Positions 2,972 to 31,584 of a stretch of DNA of 35,864 bases are shown one piece after another (positions within the stretch are counted from its first letter, which is position 1; every line of letters starts with the position of its first letter). The DNA lies in the IMG/VR virus record IMGVR_UViG_3300005533_000001, positions 1-35,864 of that record, one strand, 5' to 3'. Below the pieces are notes generated by a model. It ran no database searches. It saw only the letters and a list, made by a program, of their open reading frames with translations, and was not told where the DNA came from. This DNA comes from a virus. Position numbers and translations under genes: made by a program.

Positions 2972-3037
2972 GTAGTTGGTATTACAGTAGTTAACATCTA
3001 CTAACATTTTATCTTGTTGTTGTATTACACTTTGGAT

Positions 3038-3631
3038 ATGCGCAAACCAAAGCCAAAGCATATTCAAATTCCACTAGAATTAGAAACAGCCCTCGACAAA
3101 GAACGCGCAGCCAATCAGCGCTGGCGCGATTCCCATAAAGAACACATCGCCGAATATAATCGGCAGTACCACGCAGCCCACAAAGCCAAGCGCTCTGCGG
3201 ACAACAAGCGATGGAGAGAAGAAAATAAATGGAGACGTAGGCGCTATCAACGCGAATGGAATCTTGCCAATGCTGCCCATCGGCAAGAATTGAATGCGCG
3301 GTGGGGCGAGAGGCATCCGCGTTATCGTCCAGATTACAAACTGAAGTACAACTACGGCATCACGCTCGAACAGTATGAAAAAATGTTTCAGGCGCAGGAT
3401 GGGAAGTGCGCCATTTGTCCGAACCGGGCACCGGAGAGTGGGCGCGTGCGCCGCCTGCATGTTGACCACGATCACAAATGCTGTCCGGGTAACCGCGCTT
3501 GCGGCAAGTGCGTGCGCGGCCTATTGTGTTCGCGTTGCAACTTGGTCATCGGAAGCGTGGAGGAAAATATGGAGCTATTGATCCAGATGATCGAATACAT
3601 CCGTGCACATACTTCCCCAACTCCCCAATAA
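3038..3631 (+). CDS. Endonuclease VII family (HNH-like) nuclease with N-terminal basic/charged extension
   Basis: C-terminal GITLEQYEKMFQAQDGKCAICPN...LHVDHDHKCCPGNRACGKCVRGLLCSRCNLVIG matches the recombination endonuclease VII signature (CxxC, HVDHDH, GLLCxxCN). The real start is ATG 3038; the track's 3014 is a TTG. The N-terminal 100 aa are Lys/Arg/Glu-rich. Confidence 0.8.
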   Translation: MRKPKPKHIQIPLELETALDKERAANQRWRDSHKEHIAEYNRQYHAAHKAKRSADNKRWREENKWRRRRYQREWNLANAAHRQELNARWGERHPRYRPDYKLKYNYGITLEQYEKMFQAQDGKCAICPNRAPESGRVRRLHVDHDHKCCPGNRACGKCVRGLLCSRCNLVIGSVEENMELLIQMIEYIRAHTSPTPQ

Positions 3632-14376: not shown

Positions 14377-14538
14377 CTAATTGGACGCGGATTCAAAGGC
14401 GAGGGATTCTCTTTCTTCGTCAGCTTCCCGTGAAAAGCGTTCCATGTCCGCCTCGCAGGCACCGCATAACCCAAGCGTCCCCGGCCCGTCATATCCGCAA
14501 TATGCGCATTCATTTCCCATTTCTGTGTTCCAGATCAT
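14377..14538 (-). CDS. small zinc-ribbon protein (53 aa; CAYCG...LCGACE)
   Basis: Found by hand translation; it is shorter than the 60-aa track cutoff. Its ATG overlaps the recombinase stop as ATGA, and its stop lies 3 nt before the next gene. Confidence 0.4.
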   Translation of the reverse strand: MIWNTEMGNECAYCGYDGPGTLGLCGACEADMERFSREADEERESLAFESASN

Positions 14539-15086
14539 GCTGCTTCTCCCATAGCTTCGATGACGGAATCGAAGGCAGTAATTGAATCTTCGAGCAGGTA
14601 TGCGCCAGTGCTGGCCATGGACTTGTGCCCAGCCGTCATTCTGAGGCTTTCAATCCCGGCCCCGGCCTTGCGTGCCTGCATCAATCGACTGTGCTTCAGG
14701 ACGTGGGGGAAGCACAGACGCCGGGGAATTCCCGCCGCCTTGCCATACTTTCGCATAATGTACGAAAAGTGGTCGCGGCCCGTGCGCGCCGATGCTCCGG
14801 CAGGCAAGGGGAAGATCGGCCCCGGTGGGCAGGCTTCCAGCAATGTCTTTTCATCCATCAGCGGGTCATCCGGGCGCGATACAAGCCGCTGATCGGTCGC
14901 ATATGACCCCTTGAGCCGTTTAATGGCGATAATGCCGCCCTCAATGTGCTCCCGCCGCAACATATACGCCTCTGAGGCGCGCAATGCATGCAGGTACGTC
15001 ACCAGAATCAATAGGTGATCTTGCGCGCTCTCTTTTTGGGCCGCGCCTAGAAGGGCGCGCACCTGTTCATGGGTCATGTGTTTCAT
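14535..15086 (-). CDS. short tyrosine recombinase / phage-integrase-family catalytic domain protein
   Basis: 183 aa. ALRASE (box I Arg), PHVLKHS (H-x-x-K/R-H) and GHKSMASTGAYL (HxxxxTxxY nucleophile tyrosine) are all present. There is no N-terminal arm or core-binding domain. Confidence 0.55.
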   Translation of the reverse strand: MKHMTHEQVRALLGAAQKESAQDHLLILVTYLHALRASEAYMLRREHIEGGIIAIKRLKGSYATDQRLVSRPDDPLMDEKTLLEACPPGPIFPLPAGASARTGRDHFSYIMRKYGKAAGIPRRLCFPHVLKHSRLMQARKAGAGIESLRMTAGHKSMASTGAYLLEDSITAFDSVIEAMGEAA

Positions 15087-20571: not shown

Positions 20572-21251
20572 TGTTTCACCCATAGCAAGTAAGGCAGTCC
20601 CGGCCATTGTGCCCAGCATTTTTCAGGATTCGCTTTAGCCCAGACATCTGGCAAGTTTTCCCGGTATGCCGCCAATTCCGGCCAACGTGCCACTTGATCT
20701 TTAGTAGCTGGCTTCAATCTCGCAGGCGCGCCCGTGTCAGTTTCGCGGTAATGGTACGTGTATTGGCCCTTGCTACCGTCAGAATACGTCACGGGGTCTA
20801 CCCGGTACGGCCCAGCGGCTTTGTTGATAGCTTGCGCTTCCGCGTGTAACTCCGGCCCTCCGACCGCTTTTAATTCGTAGCGGTGACTGTCAATTTTCGC
20901 GGTACGCTTTGGACGTGTGCCATCGGCAGTCCGCATGCAGCCATGGTTCTTCCCGCCGCATGAGCATCGGCAAACATCCTCGCGTGCTTCCCAGCACGCT
21001 TCGCCGCATGTAGCCTCACTAAGGAAAGCCACAATCGGGCTTGCGCCTTGAGCGATTCGCTTTTCAATTGGATTCAATTGCTTTTCCATACTTGTTAGAT
21101 ACCACCGCGCGGCCCGTGATGCAATTAAATTCGTCACCCGTACCCGCCTGACCATGCCCGCCTGCCCGCCTCTCGTTCTCGGCTCCTGCTCTTTCTCAAT
21201 TAGCGATCTGGCAAAGCTATTGCCGCTTAATTGATTACAGGCGCGCGCCAT
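20568..21251 (-). CDS. Cys-rich hypothetical protein (CGEAC...CRCSCGGKNHGC), first gene of the leftward operon
   Basis: 227 aa with an Arg-rich N-terminus. A GGGGGAGGGAGA RBS precedes ATG 21251. The internal ATG at 21089 is an alternative start. Confidence 0.45.
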   Translation of the reverse strand: MARACNQLSGNSFARSLIEKEQEPRTRGGQAGMVRRVRVTNLIASRAARWYLTSMEKQLNPIEKRIAQGASPIVAFLSEATCGEACWEAREDVCRCSCGGKNHGCMRTADGTRPKRTAKIDSHRYELKAVGGPELHAEAQAINKAAGPYRVDPVTYSDGSKGQYTYHYRETDTGAPARLKPATKDQVARWPELAAYRENLPDVWAKANPEKCWAQWPGLPYLLWVKQ

Positions 21252-21339
21252 GGGGGAACCTTGGTTCTCCCTCCCCCTATAGCAAATTGGGGACAGATAG
21301 ACTCGGAGCCTACGCGCGCGGCCATTAAATGGACGCCAG

Positions 21340-21420
21340 TTTTTCGGTCGTAGGTTTTCGCTCTTTCTTCGCTTTTGCCGCGCGGCGAAAATCGCTTCAA
21401 TCTTCGCTTGCTATTCGCCT
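21340..21420. repeat. phased TTCGC(T/C) pentamer array (about 11-bp period, 5-6 copies)
   Basis: TTCG(C) occurs at 21343, 21357, 21368, 21391 (ATCGC), 21403 and 21414. Confidence 0.5.
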
Positions 21421-21512
21421 ATTTTTCAGCATCTTGCGGCACTAACAAGTAATTAGATATCCACAGAATTATTTTTGATTCTTTATCAGTTTGGCAATTG
21501 AAAAAAAACTTC

Positions 21513-21538
21513 TTGACACGTCTATACTCTAGGATAAT
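21513..21538 (+). promoter_or_regulatory. candidate rightward promoter (TTGACA, short spacer, GATAAT) overlapped by palindrome GGATAATCTATCC at 21532-21544
   Basis: A perfect -35 hexamer sits at 21513-21518 and GATAAT at 21533-21538. The spacer is only 14 nt, which is too short for sigma70. The AT-rich divergent intergenic region continues upstream. Confidence 0.3.
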
Positions 21539-21619
21539 CTATCCCTACAATTCGTGCAGTTCTCTCAGTAGCCAACGGTTTTATGAGTCGATTGGCACGG
21601 AAGAGAAAAGGAAAAACAA

Positions 21620-22174
21620 GTGAGCAAAACATGGTACGAAAAAACCACGTTCCAACCATCTCGCATTGCTACAGAAAATGCCGGTCGCTGGTTTCGGCCA
21701 TTGCCATCCGCAATAGCCAGTGCATTGCACGTCACGGAACCATTAAATGGTTCCAATGGACGTTGGCATGAAACCGTGCAAGATGTTGCGGACGTGCTAC
21801 AGGCGAATGTGCCAAACTTCAATCGTGCGGAATTCGCGCAAGAGGCAAAGGGAAGTGACGATTCCGCTTTTTGGTTGTCAGTTTGGCAAGATGACGGTGG
21901 TCACTGCTGGGATAGTGATGTGACTACACCGGCGGAAAATGCCGCATGGAATTACCTGAAGACTGGCATACCTCCAGCGATTGCAGCAAAAGAAAAAGAC
22001 TCCACTTTTTCGCACCTAATAGAGGTACTGAAAAGCGATGTACGCACCTCAGTGAAAAACTACAGTTTTTTGCTGTGGTTACCTCCATGCTGTGGTTTGG
22101 CTGTGGTCTACCTGCTAACCGCGATTGAAACCCTAGGCTTTGCCGTATCGCGCATTTTCGGAGGTGCAAGGTAA
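21620..22174 (+). CDS. hypothetical protein with C-terminal transmembrane helix
   Basis: 184 aa with a GTG start. Ends in a hydrophobic segment followed by RIFGGAR. Confidence 0.45.
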   Translation: MSKTWYEKTTFQPSRIATENAGRWFRPLPSAIASALHVTEPLNGSNGRWHETVQDVADVLQANVPNFNRAEFAQEAKGSDDSAFWLSVWQDDGGHCWDSDVTTPAENAAWNYLKTGIPPAIAAKEKDSTFSHLIEVLKSDVRTSVKNYSFLLWLPPCCGLAVVYLLTAIETLGFAVSRIFGGAR

Positions 22175-22374
22175 TGAATTCATCCGAGGAAAAACGCGCG
22201 CTATTGGACGCGTGGCACATAGTACGTGATGCCATGGACAAAGCACACAATGGTCATCCCTGTTCTGGTTTCTGCGAGGGTTGGCACAAAGCCGAATCAG
22301 TTCTCTACTACCTTAGCCAGCAATTGAGCGCTGGCTACAAGAGAGGGGAATCAGATGACCTATCTAGAGGCTAA
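22174..22374 (+). CDS. hypothetical small protein
   Basis: 66 aa. TAATG overlap with the upstream gene. GGAGGT SD lies 8 nt upstream. Confidence 0.45.
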   Translation: MNSSEEKRALLDAWHIVRDAMDKAHNGHPCSGFCEGWHKAESVLYYLSQQLSAGYKRGESDDLSRG

Positions 22375-22678
22375 AATCGGGCTGAAGCCTAGCACGATTG
22401 TTTCATTGCACGAATTTCACAGCATTGGGCATGTAGTGAAAACCACAGCTCACACTATGGGCATTGCTCACAGTGGTCATCCACTAGACGCGGTGACGCG
22501 CGATATTACGTTTTATGATTCGCGTGATTGCCGTCTTTTCAACCAAGGTTACATGGTACGCAAACGGCAAGAGTACAGAAACGGTTTCGCATACCGCACA
22601 AAGCGGATTACCATCGACTTACGAAACCAGACCATCGAAGAGATACTCTTACCTATGGGGCAAACTTCACTTTGGTGA
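22355..22678 (+). CDS. hypothetical protein
   Basis: 107 aa. GAGAGGGG RBS upstream. Confidence 0.4.
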   Translation: MTYLEAKIGLKPSTIVSLHEFHSIGHVVKTTAHTMGIAHSGHPLDAVTRDITFYDSRDCRLFNQGYMVRKRQEYRNGFAYRTKRITIDLRNQTIEEILLPMGQTSLW

Positions 22679-22682
22679 CGCC

Positions 22683-22898
22683 ATGGCTAAGTGGTCAGTT
22701 TGCCTCTGGAGGATTCGCGCTAATCGCGCGCCACTGTTAGCGGAAATTTCCTATCAATTGCATGATATCGAATCATGCAAGCCAGAAGACAAGTATCGCG
22801 CGATACGGTTCTATATCGCATTGCAAGCTAACCTATCGGGATTCATCTCCCGCACAACCAAGACGGAAACCATCTACCACGGAGGAGAACATGTATAA
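22683..22898 (+). CDS. hypothetical small protein
   Basis: 71 aa counted from the internal ATG of the track ORF 22515..22898. This start avoids a long overlap with the upstream gene. Confidence 0.3.
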   Translation: MAKWSVCLWRIRANRAPLLAEISYQLHDIESCKPEDKYRAIRFYIALQANLSGFISRTTKTETIYHGGEHV

Positions 22899-23007
22899 AC
22901 TTTGGTTGGAACGTGTTTGCATTGTGGCTGCAATCGCGGTGACGTTTGCCTGTCACCTCGCGTTACTCTGGTTTGCCCATGGCCATCTCCTCGGAGGTGC
23001 ACAGTGA
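22895..23007 (+). CDS. small hydrophobic membrane peptide (37 aa)
   Basis: GGAGGAG RBS upstream of ATG 22895. Carries a single TM-like segment and ends ...LLGGAQ. Confidence 0.4.
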
Positions 23008-23102
23008 CGAATCGCGGATGGCAAGCCAGTATCATTATTGGCATTGCAGTTTGGTTCCTCTGCATTGTCTACACGTACCTAGTGACCGGAGGTGCACGCT
23101 AA
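23004..23102 (+). CDS. small hydrophobic membrane peptide (32 aa)
   Basis: GTG 23004 lies 5 nt after GGAGGT. TM-like segment. Ends ...VTGGAR. Confidence 0.35.
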   Translation: MTNRGWQASIIIGIAVWFLCIVYTYLVTGGAR

Positions 23103-23344
23103 TGACACTGCCAAAGGTTACACTCCCGAAAGTTAACCGCGCGGCACTAGCCAAACATCACAGGATAATCCGCTATGGCGTATTCGGGATAATCGTGATT
23201 GTCTTGGTTGTGCTCCATGGCGATACCTCCGCAGGTTTGATATCGGCAGCATTGCTCAAAGTATTGGATGTGACAGGTGACGTAATTGCCGATAGAGTAC
23301 TGCCGTTCGATTGGCTAAAGACCATTAGCAAGATGGACGATTAG
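23102..23344 (+). CDS. small membrane protein (80 aa)
   Basis: ATG 23102 lies 8 nt after GGAGGT. Contains the hydrophobic segment GIIVIVLVVL. Confidence 0.45.
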   Translation: MTLPKVTLPKVNRAALAKHHRIIRYGVFGIIVIVLVVLHGDTSAGLISAALLKVLDVTGDVIADRVLPFDWLKTISKMDD

Positions 23345-23362
23345 CCCAACCGTTTGCCGTTT

Positions 23363-23393
23363 GCCCACGGTTTCCGCCGTGGGCATTTTTATT
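23363..23393 (+). terminator. rho-independent terminator
   Basis: An 8-bp GC stem GCCCACGG/CCGTGGGC with a 6-nt loop is followed by ATTTTTATT, directly after the stop of the 23102 gene. Confidence 0.6.
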
Positions 23394-23806
23394 GCCGTGG
23401 TCTCACGGTACGGTCGGAAGTTTTTGCCATGGCTTATTCGCCATCACTTCGCCTAATTCCCAATTGGCCAATATCGCGCGCAATGCGCCATAACGCGCGG
23501 AGGGTTTCAGATGACCCTAACCTATCAATATTCCCAACCCTCGCCTGTAGGCTAATAACTCACGAATACAACCTATGTACTCTCTATACACTGGCTTATT
23601 GATTCCGCATTACTTAGCTTATGTACTATGTAGTAATACCCTATCGAAGAAAAGGCGAATCATCCAATGGATACAATAGCTTACAGGCAGTTTTCGCCCT
23701 ATGTTCACTTGCGCCGTTTGTTCGTCTTGCGCTATTCATTCGCCAAGACTGAAAATAGATCATGAAAAGCGGAGGAGATGACACCGCGCGCCGTTTTTCT
23801 GTGGGT

Positions 23807-23830
23807 CATCTCATCTCCATCTCATCTCAT
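23807..23830. repeat. tandem repeat CATCTCATCTC x2 (TCTCAT family)
   Basis: Read directly from the sequence. TCTCAT also recurs at 23961, 23976, 24287 and 24292. Confidence 0.55.
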
Positions 23831-23994
23831 TTTTGCGCGTCCAGTCGCGTCCAATTAGCCTCCAGTGGCGCGCTAGGTCTCAAGCCATGGCGAATTCCGC
23901 AATATTACATAATGCGTAATGCCCACTAACCGCTTTGCCTTGTACCGTTTGCGCGCGCCCGTCTCATTGTCACGTGTCTCATGCGACCGCGCCA

Positions 23995-24045
23995 TAGCGA
24001 CGGCGAAGAAACGGCGAAGACGCGAGCGAATGAAAAGCGAAAAGA
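23995..24045. repeat. inverted copy of the phased pentamer array (GCGAA, 11-12-bp period, 4 copies)
   Basis: GCGAA occurs at 24003, 24014, 24026 and 24037. This is the reverse complement of the array at 21357-21418. Confidence 0.5.
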
Positions 24046-24154
24046 GCGGGTGGTAGAGGCTTTTGGGGGGTGGGGGTGAACCCCATTTGCGGGTAGTGCA
24101 ATTGCCTACTCCTTCTCCCCAATCCCGTTTCTTCTTTCTGTAGCCTTCCCCGGT

Positions 24155-24180
24155 AGCCTTTCGCCGTTGTTTCGCCCTTA
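24155..24180. repeat. two further TTCGCC copies 11 bp apart
   Basis: TTCGCC at 24160 and again at 24171. Confidence 0.4.
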
Positions 24181-24294
24181 GTGCGGTCAAAATGCGTTTT
24201 GTAGGTTAGGTCAGGGTGCGGAGGTAATGCGGAAGGGAAAAACGGCGGGAAGATTTTAATTGCATCGCGGGGGGATTGAGGGTAATCTCATCTC

Positions 24295-24308
24295 ATATCA
24301 TATGATAT
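24295..24308. promoter_or_regulatory. perfect 14-bp palindrome ATATCATATGATAT downstream of candidate promoter TTGCAT-17-TAATCT (24260-24288)
   Basis: Palindrome read directly from the sequence. The -35 matches 5/6 and the -10 is weak. Confidence 0.35.
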
Positions 24309-24496
24309 CAACCGGCAGCCAGCCCGCAGCGGGGATAACGGTGTTGGAGGTGCTGATCTATTACGGGTTGTTACTGGCCGCCGCCATGATTTGGCTTCAT
24401 TTCGGCATGAAGAAGTGCCGCTATTGCGGCAGACATAGGATGGATGGACACAAAAAGGAGTGCCCGCGCTATAGCGCCAAGAGAGGATACCTACTA

Positions 24497-24961
24497 ATGG
24501 AAACACACGTTGAACTGCCCAAGCCCACCTTGAACGTCGAACTGCTGTTGAAGGTGAAAAACCATATTCTCGAAGAACCCAAGCGCCTGCGCATGTCGAA
24601 GTGGTTCATTAAGGGCACCCCGAATGGCCATGGCAGATCAGTATCGCGTGGTTACGGCGAACCCATCGACTTTGAAGTCCCAGCTTGCGGCACTGTGGGC
24701 TGTATTGCCGGATGGACAGAACTGCTCAACCACCCTGAAGATTACGAAGGTGCCACCGGCATCAGTGGAGTGCACTGCGGTCGCGCCAAGAACGAACTTG
24801 GCCTGATAGACCAAAGCCTGTTTTTTGTTGATTGCTGGCCAGAACCCTACAAGTCCGACTATTACCAAGCCGAAGACAACCAGACGCGCGCCCAGATTGT
24901 AGGCGCGCTCATCGACAAACTGATTGAAGTTGGCGAAGAACAGCTTTTCGGGCGGGAGTAA
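24497..24961 (+). CDS. paralog A of a duplicated Cys-motif protein family (KHILEEPKRLRM ... CGTVGCIAGW ... LFFV.CWPEPY)
   Basis: GAGAGGA RBS upstream of ATG 24497. The in-frame upstream ATG at 24406 would add a CRYC...ECPRY zinc-knuckle extension. Shares a conserved nucleotide block with 28270-28317. Confidence 0.55.
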   Translation: METHVELPKPTLNVELLLKVKNHILEEPKRLRMSKWFIKGTPNGHGRSVSRGYGEPIDFEVPACGTVGCIAGWTELLNHPEDYEGATGISGVHCGRAKNELGLIDQSLFFVDCWPEPYKSDYYQAEDNQTRAQIVGALIDKLIEVGEEQLFGRE

Positions 24962-26890: not shown

Positions 26891-27150
26891 TCAACGGCAA
26901 TGCGATTCAAGACGAAGCGTTAGGTGCTGCGATACAAGGGGCAGCGCGAGACTTGCCGGAGGGATGGCAGATTCAAATCACGATAGAAAAGGGCGCAGGA
27001 TGGGCGCGACTATACAATTCCGAAGGAATCAGGGTTGACGATTTCGATAGTACCGATCTCGGTCTGCAAGAGTCGATTGTGCGCGGAATCGGGATGGCAG
27101 TGCGGGCGGCGGAGAAGACTGGAGGCAGCGAAAATGGCGAGAATAATTGA
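26887..27150 (+). CDS. hypothetical small protein
   Basis: 87 aa. ATGA overlap with the upstream gene. Confidence 0.45.
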   Translation: MINGNAIQDEALGAAIQGAARDLPEGWQIQITIEKGAGWARLYNSEGIRVDDFDSTDLGLQESIVRGIGMAVRAAEKTGGSENGENN

Positions 27151-27170
27151 TCCAATGACGCAGCAGGAAA

Positions 27171-27602
27171 TTGAGGTCGAGTGCGTTCCTTGCTTTGAAG
27201 AGGAGGGTAGCCGAGCGTGCGTTAGATTTGCACACCAAACTGAGCCAACGACTGAAATCAGAGTCGGCAGCGAAAGCCCGTGCGTTGACGGAAGCAGAAT
27301 TGGCGAACACGCCAGAGGGTAAGTTTCTAACACAGGTTGCACGCGAACTGGCGGAACAAGAGCCAGAGTCAATGTGCCCATCCTGCCACATGCTACCCGC
27401 AGCTATGATAATGCGTGTCTCGCAGGAAGCTATGCGACGTTGGGCAGACTCGGTGCGGCGGGAGACGCTGGAGGAAGCGGCCCAGATTGTCGAACGATGC
27501 TCGCTACCTTGTACTATGGCTGCGGAGAGAGACGAGACGCTTATACGTGCGAACATAGCGGCGGCGATACGCTCCCTCGCGGCAGAGAAGACGAAATTAT
27601 GA
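27171..27602 (+). CDS. hypothetical helical protein
   Basis: 143 aa with a TTG start. The short alternative ORF 27134..27322 in another frame cannot be excluded. Confidence 0.3.
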   Translation: MRSSAFLALKRRVAERALDLHTKLSQRLKSESAAKARALTEAELANTPEGKFLTQVARELAEQEPESMCPSCHMLPAAMIMRVSQEAMRRWADSVRRETLEEAAQIVERCSLPCTMAAERDETLIRANIAAAIRSLAAEKTKL

Positions 27603-27778
27603 TGAGTGAATCTCGTACTTGTAATTGGTACCGCTGCGATAAAGGCAAGCGGGATACTGCGGTCTATGAAGTAACCGGAGAACATATCGATGGCAAGACC
27701 GTAGATCGCCGCTATTGTGACGAGCACGCCGCCGCCTGCGAGAAGGCAGGCTTTACCGTTGCGCCAAAAAACCGATGA
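27599..27778 (+). CDS. small Cys-rich protein (59 aa)
   Basis: ATGATG start overlaps the upstream stop. Contains CNWYRCD...YCDEHAAAC. Confidence 0.4.
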   Translation: MMSESRTCNWYRCDKGKRDTAVYEVTGEHIDGKTVDRRYCDEHAAACEKAGFTVAPKNR

Positions 27779-28056
27779 GCGACCCGAAATTCAGGCCATC
27801 TGTGCAGCTTCGCTTCCGCAGCGCGGCGCAGTTCGCGCGCGTGAAGAAAGCCGCCGAAGACGAGGGCATTTCTACCAATGAATACATTGTCCGCCTGCTG
27901 GAACTTGAGGAGAATCCGCGCGTGGGGAAATCCATGACCGATCTGGCCAAAATCATCGAGCAACGCAGCCGCGATCACGATACCAAATCATGCAGGCTCT
28001 ATGGCTGTGGCACTTGCCGGGTGATGGGCGTGAAGGACGTGAGTCGCGGCCTATGA
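27775..28056 (+). CDS. ribbon-helix-helix (CopG/Arc-like) DNA-binding protein
   Basis: LRFRSAAQFARVKKAAEDEGISTNEYIVRLL fits the RHH beta-strand plus helix pattern. Confidence 0.5.
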   Translation: MSDPKFRPSVQLRFRSAAQFARVKKAAEDEGISTNEYIVRLLELEENPRVGKSMTDLAKIIEQRSRDHDTKSCRLYGCGTCRVMGVKDVSRGL

Positions 28057-28331
28057 TTATTACCCGCACCGATGTGTGCCAGTGCGACGAATGCGGGCAT
28101 CCGTGGCTATCGCGTTGCAAGGGCGGGGCGCTCCCCGCGCAATGTCCGCACTGTCACACGCGGCACTGGAATGATTCTGTAATACCATTACCGAGAAACA
28201 GGAGAACCAATGGCAAAATCAAAAGCCGCCAAATACAAAGTTCCCGCAGCGGGCCGCAAATTGTTGTTGCGGGTAAAGAAACATATCCTCGAAGAACCCA
28301 AGCGCCTGCGCATGGCCGAATGGATGCTTAG
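28053..28331 (+). CDS. small zinc-ribbon protein (CQCDECGH...CPHCH)
   Basis: ATGA overlap with the RHH gene. The 3' end overlaps the next gene by about 120 nt, so the true end is uncertain. Confidence 0.35.
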   Translation: MIITRTDVCQCDECGHPWLSRCKGGALPAQCPHCHTRHWNDSVIPLPRNRRTNGKIKSRQIQSSRSGPQIVVAGKETYPRRTQAPAHGRMDA

Positions 28332-28746
28332 CAAGGAATATTGCGCCAACATGGAGCCAATTTTCCAAACCGCTGGTACGGCTTGGGGAGAACCCCCGCG
28401 CAGAGGAATACAATGGCCATCGTGTGGTACAACCGGCTGTATTGCCGGATGGATGGAATTGCTCGCCAACGGTATGCCAGAGGGCGACGCAGACTTAATG
28501 GACAGGATGGATAGCGCTCAGGAATTCGCCTCCAAGGTGCTGGAATTTGATAAGCAGCCATGGGGCACATACACCGAACCGGGACTTTTCTTTGTGAGCG
28601 AGTGGCCATACAAATTTGCCGAGAGCTACTCGAAGGCCAAGACTCAGGCCAAGCGCGCCAAAATTGTGGCTGCCGTGATTGATGACTTCTTGGCCGACCC
28701 GGAGCCTTACCTCCCCGCACCAGAACCCGAGGAAGGCGATGACTAA
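28210..28746 (+). CDS. paralog B of the duplicated Cys-motif family (KHILEEPKRLRM ... CGTTGCIAGW ... LFFVSEWPY)
   Basis: 178 aa. CAGGAG RBS upstream. Clear protein and nucleotide similarity to 24497..24961. Confidence 0.55.
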   Translation: MAKSKAAKYKVPAAGRKLLLRVKKHILEEPKRLRMAEWMLSKEYCANMEPIFQTAGTAWGEPPRRGIQWPSCGTTGCIAGWMELLANGMPEGDADLMDRMDSAQEFASKVLEFDKQPWGTYTEPGLFFVSEWPYKFAESYSKAKTQAKRAKIVAAVIDDFLADPEPYLPAPEPEEGDD

Positions 28747-29841: not shown

Positions 29842-30076
29842 CGGGGTGCGGCGCTTGAACGAAAAAACGGCAATCGGCGAATACGAGAAATTCCACCGGA
29901 ATGGCACAACCGCATCCATCAGCTTTTTGGAGTGGCTGAAACGCGAGCAGATCAAGATCGTGGACATAGACGACAAGGCGCAGTTTTGGATTAAGCCGAA
30001 CTGATATTCTCTTTTCATTCGCCTCCCTGTACAATCCTGAAAGCGGCGCAAGCCGTAATCTAATTTCAGGAGAAGT

Positions 30077-31537: not shown

Positions 31538-31584
31538 GGCAACTCCCCTAAACTAACTTTCGTCGCGATTCATTCGCCCCGGAG

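What the first reader, a model, noticed from the sequence alone, without database searches (positions are those of the whole stretch)
23394..24496. A 1.1-kb noncoding island packed with distinct repeat classes (TCTCAT tandem repeats, 14-bp palindrome, TATGTACT repeats)
This stretch follows a strong terminator and has no convincing ORF. It contains a CATCTCATCTC x2 tandem repeat at 23807-23830. TCTCAT recurs at 23961 and 23976, flanking CACGTG, and again at 24287 and 24292. A perfect 14-bp palindrome ATATCATATGATAT sits at 24295-24308. TATGTACT appears at 23574 and 23620 in an AT-rich patch. An 11-bp palindrome GCGCAATGCGC lies near 23480. G-runs GGGGGGTGGGGGTG occur at 24063-24077, and the GCGAA arrays described above are also here. 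Such a concentration of elements in a phage noncoding region is typical of an origin, an attP or integration core (a tyrosine recombinase is encoded in the window), or a master regulatory region. A candidate promoter TTGCAT-17-TAATCT at 24260-24288 fires into the palindrome.
Basis: seen in the sequence. Interest (0 to 1): 0.65.

Follow-up and report, generated by a model that had tools for sequence, protein, structure and literature searches.

The report
Conserved phage early-operon control region
A roughly 0.9-kb gene-free stretch in an uncharacterised ~102-kb soil phage genome is packed with one-helical-turn-spaced binding-site-like repeats, and its core is conserved in two distant relatives just upstream of their early genes, so it is most likely the phage's early-gene control region rather than an integration site.

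Summary
The repeats are real and the island (23394-24301) is the most repeat-rich 900 bp in 55 kb of this genome. Several listed items are chance-level: the 14-bp palindrome, GCGCAATGCGC and TATGTACT x2. The last 195 nt (24302-24496) are probably coding.

- **GCGAA dyads.** The 16-bp sites GCGAA-N6-GCGAA are spaced one helical turn apart. Seven of nine exact copies in 55 kb lie in this island or in the divergent gap 21251-21620.
- **Conserved block.** A non-coding block of about 150 nt (23990-24145) runs GCGAA array, GGGTGGT, N11, GGGGGYGGGG, TGCCTACT, T-rich. It is conserved in two related ~100-kb phage contigs, always 120-300 nt upstream of the first ORF of the rightward operon, although the neighbouring genes are not detectably conserved at DNA level.

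An Arc-like ribbon-helix-helix (RHH) protein whose predicted DNA-reading strand QLRFRS is identical in all three phages is the best candidate binder.

Best reading, about 0.5: an early-operon operator/promoter/leader region. An origin (about 0.2) and a structured RNA (about 0.12) remain open. attP is unsupported. No Rfam, tRNA, phage or plasmid match was found. This is a new member of a known kind, of moderate interest.

The parts
23362..23392 (+). Intrinsic terminator ending the upstream mini-operon (21620-23344). A second small hairpin, CCGTGGTCTCACGG, follows at 23395-23408.
   Evidence: 10-bp stem, 7 G-C pairs, loop of 4, then TTTTTATT; folding z-scores of -4 to -5 at 23300-23450. for coordinates.
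23437..23453 (-). Exact GCGAA dyad GGCGAAGTGATGGCGAA. A 15/16 match, GCGAAGTAATGGCGAA, is present in relative R2.
23550..23640. AT-richer patch (G+C 0.40-0.43 per 100 bp across 23500-23699) carrying TATGTACT at 23574 and 23620. The repeat itself is chance-level and the patch is not alignable to the relatives.
23643..23659 (+). GCGAA dyad with one mismatch: (A)TCGAAGAAAAGGCGAA.
23693..23745 (-). Cluster of three degenerate GCGAA dyads, read as TTCGC on the + strand. It ends in TTCATTCGCC (23735-23744).
23735..23756 (+). Promoter-like module TTCATTCGCC-N6-GAAAAT. The same 10-mer occurs at 30014 (followed after 6 nt by TACAAT) and at 31569; all three copies are + strand and intergenic.
   Evidence: 3 exact copies in the window. 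By my arithmetic about 0.1 are expected in 55 kb. Inferred promoter; not demonstrated.
23762..23830 (+). Imperfect hairpin whose 3' arm is the CATCTCATCTC x2 tandem repeat (23807-23828), followed by TTTTT. It includes copy 1 of GGGTMATCTCATCTC (23803-23817).
   Evidence: I3, D3, D6; dG -22.9 kcal/mol, z = -1.2, not significant.
23962..23982 (+). TCTCAT-TGT-CACGTG-TCTCAT.
23990..24145 (+). Conserved non-coding block. Order of elements: four phased GCGAA units (24003, 24014, 26, 37); GGGTGGT (24048); N11; GGGGGTGGGG within the G-run 24065-24078; N6; CCCA; GG-N10-GC; TGCCTACT (24103); T-rich tract.
   Evidence: nhmmer window against R1, E 3.7e-6 and 5.9e-6; R1 against R2, E 1.3e-10. Alignments give 52-56% identity. 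Stops and indels in every frame in the relatives.
24160..24176 (-). Exact dyad GGCGAAACAACGGCGAA. Its 16-nt core GCGAAACAACGGCGAA is identical to a site in R2 (L078 17103).
24260..24296 (+). Proximal promoter-like region: TTGCAT-17-TAATCT plus copy 2 of GGGTMATCTCATCTC (24280-24294). TAATC(N)CATC is loosely conserved at the same place in R2.
   Evidence: Weak consensus match (3/6 + 3/6); not detected.
24295..24308 (.). Perfect 14-bp palindrome overlapping ATG 24302. Not conserved in the relatives and at chance frequency in the window.
24302..24496 (+). Probable coding sequence: 65 codons encoding a TM helix plus CxxC...H...C, in frame with the 154-aa gene and with no stop before it. Not part of the non-coding island.
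   Evidence: phrog_2451, E 9e-5. R2 has a small CxxC...CxxC ORF in the same position (read by eye).
21347..21430 (-). Second cluster of GCGAA dyads, two of them exact, in the divergent intergenic gap 21251-21620. It belongs to the same site family.
27802..28056 (+). Arc-like RHH protein and candidate binder of the dyads. The N-terminal strand QLRFRS is identical in the window, R1 and R2.
   Evidence: Arc repressor E 0.87. NF050181 VapB E 0.0013, below its cutoff. That it binds the dyads is inferred.

Best explanation
The island is the transcriptional control region of the long rightward operon of small early-type genes that starts at 24302. It probably also helps control the neighbouring divergent units.

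**Proposed mechanism**
1. Transcription from the upstream mini-operon is stopped at the 23362 terminator.
2. A sequence-specific protein then occupies arrays of 16-bp GCGAA-N6-GCGAA sites. Their half-sites lie one helical turn apart, so the bound proteins sit on one face of the DNA.
3. The main array (24003-24041) points towards the operon and abuts a conserved G-rich core (24048-24110).
4. I take that core to be the promoter and/or the start of a conserved leader.
5. A proximal TAATCTCATCTC element lies just before the first start codon.

**Candidate binder:** the phage's own small Arc-like ribbon-helix-helix protein (27802-28056), made from the same operon. That would give feedback control of early transcription, as Arc/Mnt do in P22 or as RHH centromere-binding proteins do at their own promoters.

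**Shown**
- The repeats, their enrichment, their 11-bp phasing and their intergenic distribution.
- Absence of coding capacity.
- Conservation and synteny of the block.
- Conservation of the RHH beta-strand.

**Inferred**
- That the dyads are bound by the RHH protein.
- That the core is a promoter or leader.
- The direction of regulation.
For: **Position**
- The island lies between a strong terminator and the first ORF of a + strand run of more than 30 small ORFs.

**GCGAA dyads**
- 35 hits with up to 1 mismatch against 10.0 in shuffles over 55 kb.
- 9 exact copies, 7 of them in the island (5) or the 21251-21620 gap (2). These two regions make up 2.3% of the sequence.
- One-mismatch copies at 30007 and 31562 are also intergenic.
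- Lag-11 self-similarity has z = 4.2 and is the highest of all 900-bp windows.

**Conservation in the relatives**
- The same dyads are enriched in the syntenic gap of relative R2 (8 of 17 hits in 7% of the sequence) and are present in R1.
- Identical 16-mers are shared with R2 although the flanking DNA is unalignable.
- The arrays lie 220-300 nt upstream of the first ORF in all three genomes.
- The block is conserved, whereas nhmmer with the 3.3-kb query 21200-24500 found nothing else significant. Of the early-side proteins (21.6-29.6 kb), only the 184-aa protein, the RHH protein and, in R2, a 103-aa protein match the relatives.

**Candidate binder**
- The RHH strand QLRFRS is identical in the three phages.
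- RHH proteins bind arrays of direct and inverted short repeats upstream of operons and repress them (PMC5016525).

**Not coding, not a known RNA**
- No ORF or pseudogene.
- No Rfam family and no tRNA.
Against: - No transcription start, promoter or binding has been demonstrated.
- The host is unknown, so promoter consensus scans are uninformative (one search found fewer sigma-70-like sites than in shuffles).
- The RHH assignment rests on weak sequence similarity (E 0.87 to Arc; NCBIfam hit below its cutoff).
- The dyads are direct repeats, which is less typical for Arc-type operators.
- About 500 bp of the island (23394-23900) does not align to the relatives, which carry a leftward operon there instead. 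Part of the island may therefore be non-functional deletion scar.
- Only three genomes are available.
- A control region and an origin are not mutually exclusive.
Confidence: 0.5

Rival explanations
1. Replication origin. The phased GCGAA sites are iterons bound by an initiator. The AT-richer patch (23550-23640), or the very AT-rich 21447 region, melts. Alternatively, transcription through the G6-T-G5 tract leaves a stable G-rich RNA/DNA hybrid that primes DNA synthesis, as at ColE1 ori or mitochondrial CSBII (from memory).
For: - 11-bp phased repeat arrays in two clusters flank a small gene cassette, an iteron-gene-iteron layout.
- The global minimum of cumulative G-C over 55 kb is at 23993, exactly where the block starts, with a local skew flip from -0.22 to +0.46.
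- The conserved G-run is on the non-template strand for rightward transcription.
- Conservation is stronger than in the surrounding genes.
Against: - No DnaA box with up to 1 mismatch in the island.
- No recognisable Rep or initiator nearby.
- The cumulative skew minimum is not at the block in R1 or R2, and in the window it is confounded by the strand switch of the genes.
- Dyad-like sites also occur at 30007 and 31562, upstream of ordinary genes.
- The most AT-rich segment and the only DnaA-box-like site in the area (21447-21465) lie outside the island.
Confidence: 0.2
2. The conserved core (about 24046-24145, + strand) is a structured RNA: either a small RNA or a cis-acting leader (antitermination or attenuation type) of the early transcript. 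P1 is GGGUGGUAG paired with CCUACUCC, enclosing a G-rich hairpin P2, followed by a U-rich tract.
For: - RNAalifold gives a + strand consensus of -13.2 kcal/mol against -5.9 on the - strand.
- The two most conserved sub-blocks pair with each other using G-U pairs that would be A-C on the other strand.
- There are two compensatory pairs.
- 91.7% of cells are paired against 44-56% in slid controls.
- A U-rich tract follows in all three genomes.
Against: - Single-sequence folding is not better than shuffles (z = -1.8, +1.3, +0.5).
- The window-wide z-score scan is flat across 23500-24300.
- The covariation test is reached by 61 of 500 shuffles with only three sequences.
- The structure was derived from the same sequences.
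- No Rfam match, even at E up to 1-5.
Confidence: 0.12
3. Genome terminus or packaging region. The physical ends (direct terminal repeat, or a cos/pac site with a G-rich cut sequence) lie in the island. This would resemble the non-coding, repeat-rich left ends of T7-like podoviruses that precede the early genes (from memory).
For: - The position is immediately upstream of the early-type operon.
- SU10-type adaptor and nozzle genes indicate a podovirus-like particle.
- The assemblies are circular, as expected for terminally redundant genomes (102,259 and 102,370 bp).
- A conserved G-rich sequence is compatible with a terminase recognition or cut site.
Against: - No terminase within the 55 kb examined.
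- None of the four contigs breaks at the block.
- Nothing in the sequence marks an end.
- Dyads also occur elsewhere in the genome.
Confidence: 0.07
4. Site for the small tyrosine recombinase: an attP core, a dimer-resolution site, or an invertible promoter segment bounded by the perfect 11-bp inverted repeats 23603/24224 or 23789/24237.
For: - A conserved 183-aa tyrosine recombinase of FimB/FimE size class is encoded at 14535-15086.
- The island has the highest inverted-repeat content of the 55 kb, including two perfect 11-bp inverted pairs (I10, I15).
- The TCATCTCATCTC motif is on the opposite strand in R2.
Against: - The recombinase is 8.3 kb away.
- Both independent assemblies have the same orientation and are 100% identical.
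- The block has the same orientation relative to the early operon in all three genomes.
- No tRNA and no host match.
- The inverted pairs belong to the same motif families that also occur as direct repeats.
Confidence: 0.04

Closest known systems
Phage P22 immI region (Arc and Mnt ribbon-helix-helix repressors and their operators) - from memory
   Same: - A small phage-encoded RHH protein.
- Operator half-sites about one helical turn apart.
- Control of early or antirepressor transcription from a compact intergenic region.
   Different: - Here there are at least 12 sites spread over about 0.8 kb, plus a second cluster 2 kb away, in both orientations and as direct-repeat dyads.
- The RHH gene is 3.5 kb downstream, not adjacent.
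- Binding is untested.
RHH centromere/operator arrays of plasmids (ParR-parC of R1, omega heptads of pSM19035, ParG-parH of TP228)
   Same: - Arrays of short direct and inverted repeats upstream of an operon.
- The array can be split into two blocks with a promoter between.
- They are bound cooperatively by RHH dimers that also repress transcription (PMC5016525).
- The R1 repeats are 11 bp (from memory).
   Different: - No ParA, ParM or other partition ATPase is seen in the 55 kb examined.
- The element is a phage genome.
- The repeat units are 16-bp dyads.
Iteron origins with flanking control iterons (P1 oriR incC/incA, F oriS) - from memory
   Same: - Helically phased repeats in two clusters flanking a gene.
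- An adjacent AT-richer DNA segment.
   Different: - No Rep-like initiator.
- No DnaA boxes in the island.
- The sites are shorter than typical 19-22-bp iterons and also occur at ordinary promoters.
Early promoter region at the left end of T7-type phages (A1-A3) - from memory
   Same: - A non-coding region of about 1 kb before the first early gene.
- It contains repeated promoter-like modules: GGGTMATCTCATCTC x2, 477 bp apart.
   Different: - No demonstrated promoters or genome end here.
- There are extra operator-like arrays and a conserved G-rich core.
G-rich R-loop/primer elements (ColE1 RNA II G-run, mitochondrial CSBII) - from memory
   Same: A G6-T-G5 tract on the non-template strand downstream of promoter-like sequence, conserved across relatives.
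   Different: - No evidence of priming.
- The tract is embedded in a block that may equally be a protein-binding site or a promoter.

Membership tests
RHH-protein operator array | Multiple short repeats at helical phasing, direct and/or inverted, in a promoter-bearing intergenic region | tested here: met
   half-sites about 11 bp apart, lag-11 z = 4.2, and 7 of 9 exact dyads in two intergenic regions.
RHH-protein operator array | A cognate ribbon-helix-helix protein encoded by the element | tested here: inconclusive
   - The 27802-28056 product resembles Arc (E 0.87).
- It also resembles a VapB antitoxin model (E 0.0013, below its cutoff).
- It has no Pfam RHH hit.
- The strand QLRFRS is conserved in three phages.
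RHH-protein operator array | Demonstrated binding of the protein to the repeats | not testable with these tools
   Needs EMSA, footprinting or ChIP.
Iteron-type replication origin | Cluster of phased iterons next to an AT-rich unwinding element | tested here: inconclusive
   - Phased repeats are present.
- The AT-richer patch at 23550-23640 is only 57-60% A+T.
- The most AT-rich 60 bp of the 55 kb is at 21447, outside the island.
Iteron-type replication origin | DnaA boxes and/or an adjacent initiator (Rep) gene | tested here: not met
   - No DnaA box with up to 1 mismatch in 23394-24300.
- No Rep-like family in the neighbouring proteins.
Iteron-type replication origin | Initiation of replication at the site | not testable with these tools
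   Needs read-depth, 2D-gel or plasmid-rescue data.
attP of a tyrosine integrase | Integrase gene adjacent to the site | tested here: not met
   The only tyrosine recombinase is 8.3 kb away and is 183 aa, catalytic domain only.
attP of a tyrosine integrase | Core sequence shared with a host attB (often a tRNA 3' end) | tested here: inconclusive
   - No tRNA-like sequence.
- One pattern from the core found only chance hits in genome contigs.
- The host is unknown, so no direct attB test was possible.
Known structured RNA family (Rfam) | Covariance-model match at or near the gathering score | tested here: not met
   only sub-threshold miRNA- and sRNA-model noise.
Novel structured RNA | Conserved fold supported by covariation and by stability above shuffles | tested here: inconclusive
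   - Two compensatory pairs; 61 of 500 shuffles reach the score.
- z = -1.8, +1.3, +0.5.
- Only three sequences.
sigma-54 promoter with upstream enhancer | GG-N10-GC with a TGGCAC-N5-TTGCW context, enhancer sites about 80-150 bp upstream, and an AAA+ activator | tested here: inconclusive
   - GG-N10-GC is conserved in all three genomes, and the GCGAA array would sit at about -115 to -75.
- A rough PWM built from memory scores only 7.3, 6.4 and 11.6 bits, while about 90 sites of at least 7 bits occur in shuffled 55 kb.
- No activator gene was seen.
cos/pac/terminal-repeat region | Physical DNA ends or a terminase cut at the site; usually next to terminase genes or at the early end of the genome | not testable with these tools
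   - No reads are available.
- No terminase in the 55 kb.
- Contig breaks are elsewhere.
Rho-independent terminator (23362-23392) | G+C-rich hairpin followed by a T-run at the end of an operon | tested here: met

The most novel reading that the evidence does not exclude
The conserved core (GGGTGGT-N11-GGGGGYGGGG-N6-CCCA ... TGCCTACT, followed by a T-rich tract) is not a protein operator. It would instead be a new cis-acting nucleic-acid element of a previously undescribed clade of ~100-kb soil phages. Two forms are possible.
- A structured leader or small RNA that makes early transcription terminator-resistant or attenuated.
- A G-run-dependent R-loop or G-quadruplex primer site that couples early transcription to replication initiation, with the GCGAA array as its loading platform.
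Probability: 0.15. Interest if true: 0.7.

Novelty: new member of a known kind. Interest (0 to 1): 0.38.

Why it matters
This phage clade has almost no annotatable genes: 20 of 20 proteins tested had no Pfam hit. It also has no cultured host.

In such genomes a conserved non-coding block and its operator-like sites are among the few handles on how the infection programme is controlled. Together with a candidate regulator (the RHH protein) they give a directly testable protein-DNA pair.

If the region proved to be the origin or a new RNA element, it would also give a marker for finding and orienting related genomes in metagenomes.

As it stands, this is a well-supported but functionally unproven example of a familiar kind of phage feature.

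Tried and rejected
**Known RNAs and homologous DNA: nothing found**
- Known RNA or tRNA: none.
- Homologous DNA in GenBank phages or PLSDB plasmids: none.

**Hidden gene or pseudogene: none**
- Small-ORF listing, tblastn of all window proteins against the island, and six-frame pieces against the relatives' gaps gave only noise.
- One - strand 'match' was interrupted by stop codons.

**Other hypotheses tested**
- Stable RNA structure across the island: sliding z-scores near 0 apart from the terminator.
- sigma-54 promoter: conserved GG-N10-GC but a weak score.
- DnaA boxes: none in the island.
- GC-skew argument for an origin: holds in the window but not in the relatives.
- A general promoter motif from intergenic k-mer enrichment: nothing strong; TAATCTA is about 4.7-fold enriched.

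**Anchoring on flanking or nearby genes to find syntenic relatives: mostly failed because the genes are mosaic**
- 154-aa family.
- 378-aa protein.
- Exonuclease.
- Only the nozzle gene led to true relatives, which were then walked.

**Searches that gave nothing useful**
- A concatenated 2,416-aa query, meant to stretch the last protein search, returned nothing and wasted that search.
- Exact-pattern scans for the core found only the already-known relative in IMG/VR and three chance hits in species genomes.
- A profile of the block found no further copies in about 0.5 Mb of fetched loci.
Full report
**Context**

The window is part of a genome of about 102.2 kb that was assembled independently twice: Logan SRR5579871_25991 at 102,259 bp and ENA ERZ27279679 k141_2466477 at 102,370 bp. 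After subtracting the k-mer overlap expected at the ends of a circular assembly (my assumption of k = 31 for Logan and 141 for the k141 contig), the two lengths agree. The two contigs break at different places and are 100% identical over the region, so the assembly is circular.

Window 1-12 kb encodes podovirus-type structural proteins, including an SU10-type adaptor and a nozzle. A leftward gene block occupies 12.7-21.25 kb and includes a 183-aa tyrosine recombinase. A short rightward operon encoding a 184-aa protein and several small, mostly membrane, proteins runs from 21620 to 23344 and ends in a strong terminator. After the finding's region, a long rightward run of small ORFs begins. Almost nothing is annotatable: 20 of 20 proteins had no Pfam hit. 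No DNA match exists in GenBank phages or PLSDB plasmids.

**The observation**

All the literal elements exist, with coordinate errors of 1-2 nt for the TCTCAT copies and the G-run. Taken as a whole the island is exceptional.

- Among 362 sliding 900-bp windows across 55 kb of the genome, it ranks first for combined direct plus inverted k-mer repeats.
- It also ranks first for self-similarity at a lag of 11 bp, with z = 4.2.
- TCTCAT is concentrated there: 7 of 11 + strand copies in the window.
- GGGTMATCTCATCTC occurs exactly twice, at 23803 and 24280, and nowhere else in 55 kb.

- Perfect 14-bp palindromes occur twice in the window against 2.2 expected.
- The 11-bp palindrome and the duplicated 8-mer are expected at this length.
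- The TTGCAT-17-TAATCT promoter matches the consensus at only 6 of 12 positions.

The gene caller leaves 23345-24496 empty, and I found no ORF, paralogue or pseudogene in 23394-24301. The last 195 nt (24302-24496) are different. They form an open in-frame extension of the 154-aa gene, encode a TM helix and a CxxC motif, and hit phrog_2451. They are probably coding.

**The informative repeat family**

They are 16-bp dyads, GCGAA-N6-GCGAA, with half-sites one helical turn apart.

- With up to one mismatch there are 35 in 55 kb against 10 in shuffles.
- Of 9 exact copies, 5 are in the island (23437, 24003, 24014, 24026, 24160) and 2 are in the divergent intergenic gap 21251-21620.
- One-mismatch copies at 30007 and 31562 are also intergenic.
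- The main array (24003-24041, + orientation) points towards the rightward operon. The array in the 21.3-kb gap points towards the leftward block.
- One variant, TTCATTCGCC, occurs three times, always on the + strand and intergenic. Twice it is followed after 6 nt by a -10-like hexamer: GAAAAT at 23751 and TACAAT at 30030.

**Relatives**

Anchoring on neighbouring genes mostly failed because those genes are mosaic. The nozzle protein did identify true relatives of 100-103 kb: IMGVR_UViG_3300044981_000021 (R1) and IMGVR_UViG_3300050821_002969 (R2). Their structural proteins are 33-62% identical to the window's. I walked both contigs to the syntenic region.

There, between a partial homologue of the 184-aa protein and a homologue of the RHH protein, both carry an ORF-poor gap. 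That gap contains a block homologous to window 23990-24145.

- nhmmer window against R1 gives E 3.7e-6 and 5.9e-6; R1 against R2 gives E 1.3e-10.
- Pairwise identity is 52-56%.
- The shared order is: GCGAA dyad(s), GGGTGGT, N11, GGGGGYGGGG, N6, CCCA, GG-N10-GC, TGCYTACT, T-rich tract.
- The block ends 120-190 nt upstream of the first ORF of the rightward operon, and the dyads lie 220-300 nt upstream.
- In every frame the relatives have stops or indels across the block, so it is not coding.
- The 3.3-kb query gave no other significant DNA match.
- On the early (rightward) side of the island (21.6-29.6 kb), only the 184-aa protein, the RHH protein and, in R2, a 103-aa protein match the relatives.

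The block is therefore under stronger constraint than its neighbours. Dyads are enriched in the syntenic gap of R2 (8 of 17 hits in 7% of the sequence). Two 16-mers are identical between the window and R2 (GCGAAACAACGGCGAA and GCGAATGAAAAGAGAA), even though the surrounding DNA cannot be aligned.

Not everything is shared. The relatives carry a leftward 2-3-gene operon, a small leftward ORF and, in R2, an HNH endonuclease gene between the terminator and the block. The window has about 500 bp of unalignable, repeat-rich DNA there instead. The TCATCTCATCTC motif is present in the relatives but on the other strand, upstream of that small leftward ORF.

**Which molecule reads it?**

The only recognisable DNA-binding protein conserved among the three phages in this part of the genome is a small Arc-like ribbon-helix-helix protein at 27802-28056.

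- Its sequence support is weak: Arc E 0.87 and a VapB model at E 0.0013, below cutoff.
- Its N-terminal strand QLRFRS, the part that contacts bases in RHH proteins (established knowledge), is identical in all three.
- RHH proteins characteristically bind arrays of short direct and inverted repeats upstream of operons and repress them. Such arrays can be split around a promoter (PMC5016525).

This fits the dyads, but it is an inference.

**RNA alternative**

On the + strand the two most conserved sub-blocks (GGGUGGUAG and CCUACUCC) can pair, with G-U pairs, around a G-rich hairpin. There are two compensatory pairs, and 92% of cells are paired against about 50% in slid controls. Against this:

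- the covariation score is reached by 61 of 500 shuffles;
- single-sequence stabilities are no better than shuffles (z = -1.8, +1.3, +0.5);
- the sliding scan is flat;
- Rfam has nothing.

The test is inconclusive with three sequences.

**Origin alternative**

In favour are the phased repeats and the global cumulative G-C minimum at 23993. Against it:

- there are no DnaA boxes and no initiator is recognisable;
- the skew minimum is elsewhere in R1 and R2;
- the most AT-rich segment lies in the other gap, at 21447.

**attP or invertible segment**

- The recombinase is distant and of FimB/FimE size.
- Both assemblies and all three genomes share the same orientation.
- There is no tRNA and no host match.

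**Genome terminus or packaging site**

This cannot be tested without reads.

**sigma-54 promoter with enhancer**

The geometry fits, because GG-N10-GC is conserved and the array would sit at about -115 to -75. The score is poor, however.

**Verdict**

The island is real and non-coding up to 24301. Its right half is conserved and functional. The most likely function (about 0.5) is control of the early rightward operon through a phased operator array, probably bound by the RHH protein, next to a conserved promoter or leader core. An origin function (about 0.2) or an RNA function (about 0.12) is not excluded and could coexist with transcriptional control.

It is a new member of a known kind of phage feature, found in an undescribed clade. 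Interest is moderate.

Noticed in passing
window 24302-24961: The called 154-aa gene (24497-24961) is preceded by 65 in-frame codons with no stop, running from ATG 24302. They encode a TM helix plus CxxC...H...C and hit phrog_2451 at E 9e-5. Either this is a 219-aa fusion protein or there are two alternative starts. R2 has a separate small CxxC...CxxC ORF at the same position.
   Followed up: partly
window 24497-24961 and 28210-28746; loci L026, L030, L032: Two paralogues (154 and 178 aa) of an uncharacterised family with the invariant motifs LLLKVK.HILEEP and CGT.GCI.GW. The family is common in soil and groundwater phage contigs, sometimes as 2-3 tandem copies. In R1, and in a fourth relative seen only at its contig start (L022, Ga0210383_10000082), a copy sits next to the recombinase instead.
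   Followed up: partly
window 14535-15086 (- strand): A tyrosine recombinase of only 183 aa (catalytic domain only). Its best models include FimB/FimE-type DNA invertases (NF007370, E 2e-8). It is conserved in R1, R2 and L022. This suggests inversion or resolution rather than classical integration.
   Followed up: partly
window 21251-21620: A divergent intergenic gap containing three GCGAA dyads, the most AT-rich 60 bp of the 55 kb (77% A+T at 21447), a DnaA-box-like ATATCCACA at 21457, and a good TTGACA-N16-TAATCT promoter-like site at 21514-21541. By classical criteria this is a better origin-like candidate than the island.
   Followed up: partly
window 22158-22179, 22991-23012, 23086-23107: The junction sequence CGGAGGTGCA...TAATGA/TGACGA (RBS plus overlapping stop/start) is repeated three times between small membrane-protein ORFs. 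This suggests a tandemly duplicated cassette with translational coupling. One small TM ORF, 23005-23103, was not called.
   Followed up: no
L078 17029-17601 (R2): An HNH/endonuclease VII-like ORF (phrog_3118, E 7.6e-11) is inserted immediately upstream of the conserved block in R2 only. This is consistent with a homing endonuclease settling next to a conserved sequence. A GCGAA dyad lies within its first 90 nt.
   Followed up: no
window 23499-23555: A canonical RBS (GGAGG, then 7 nt, then ATG at 23511) precedes a 14-codon ORF, MTLTYQYSQPSPVG. Its first bases resemble the start of the 107-aa gene at 22355 (GGGAATCAGATGACC against GGGTTTCAGATGACC). It could be a micro-ORF, or a remnant of a duplicated gene start.
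   Followed up: no
window 27029-27778: The gene caller chose a 232-aa - strand ORF (27029-27727) in the middle of an otherwise all-+ operon. Overlapping + strand ORFs (27171-27602 and 27374-27778) look at least as plausible. The call may be wrong.
   Followed up: no
window 3014-3631 and contig region upstream (L009 5931-6416): Two endonuclease VII-family genes (PF02945) lie within the structural and late region of the same genome.
   Followed up: no
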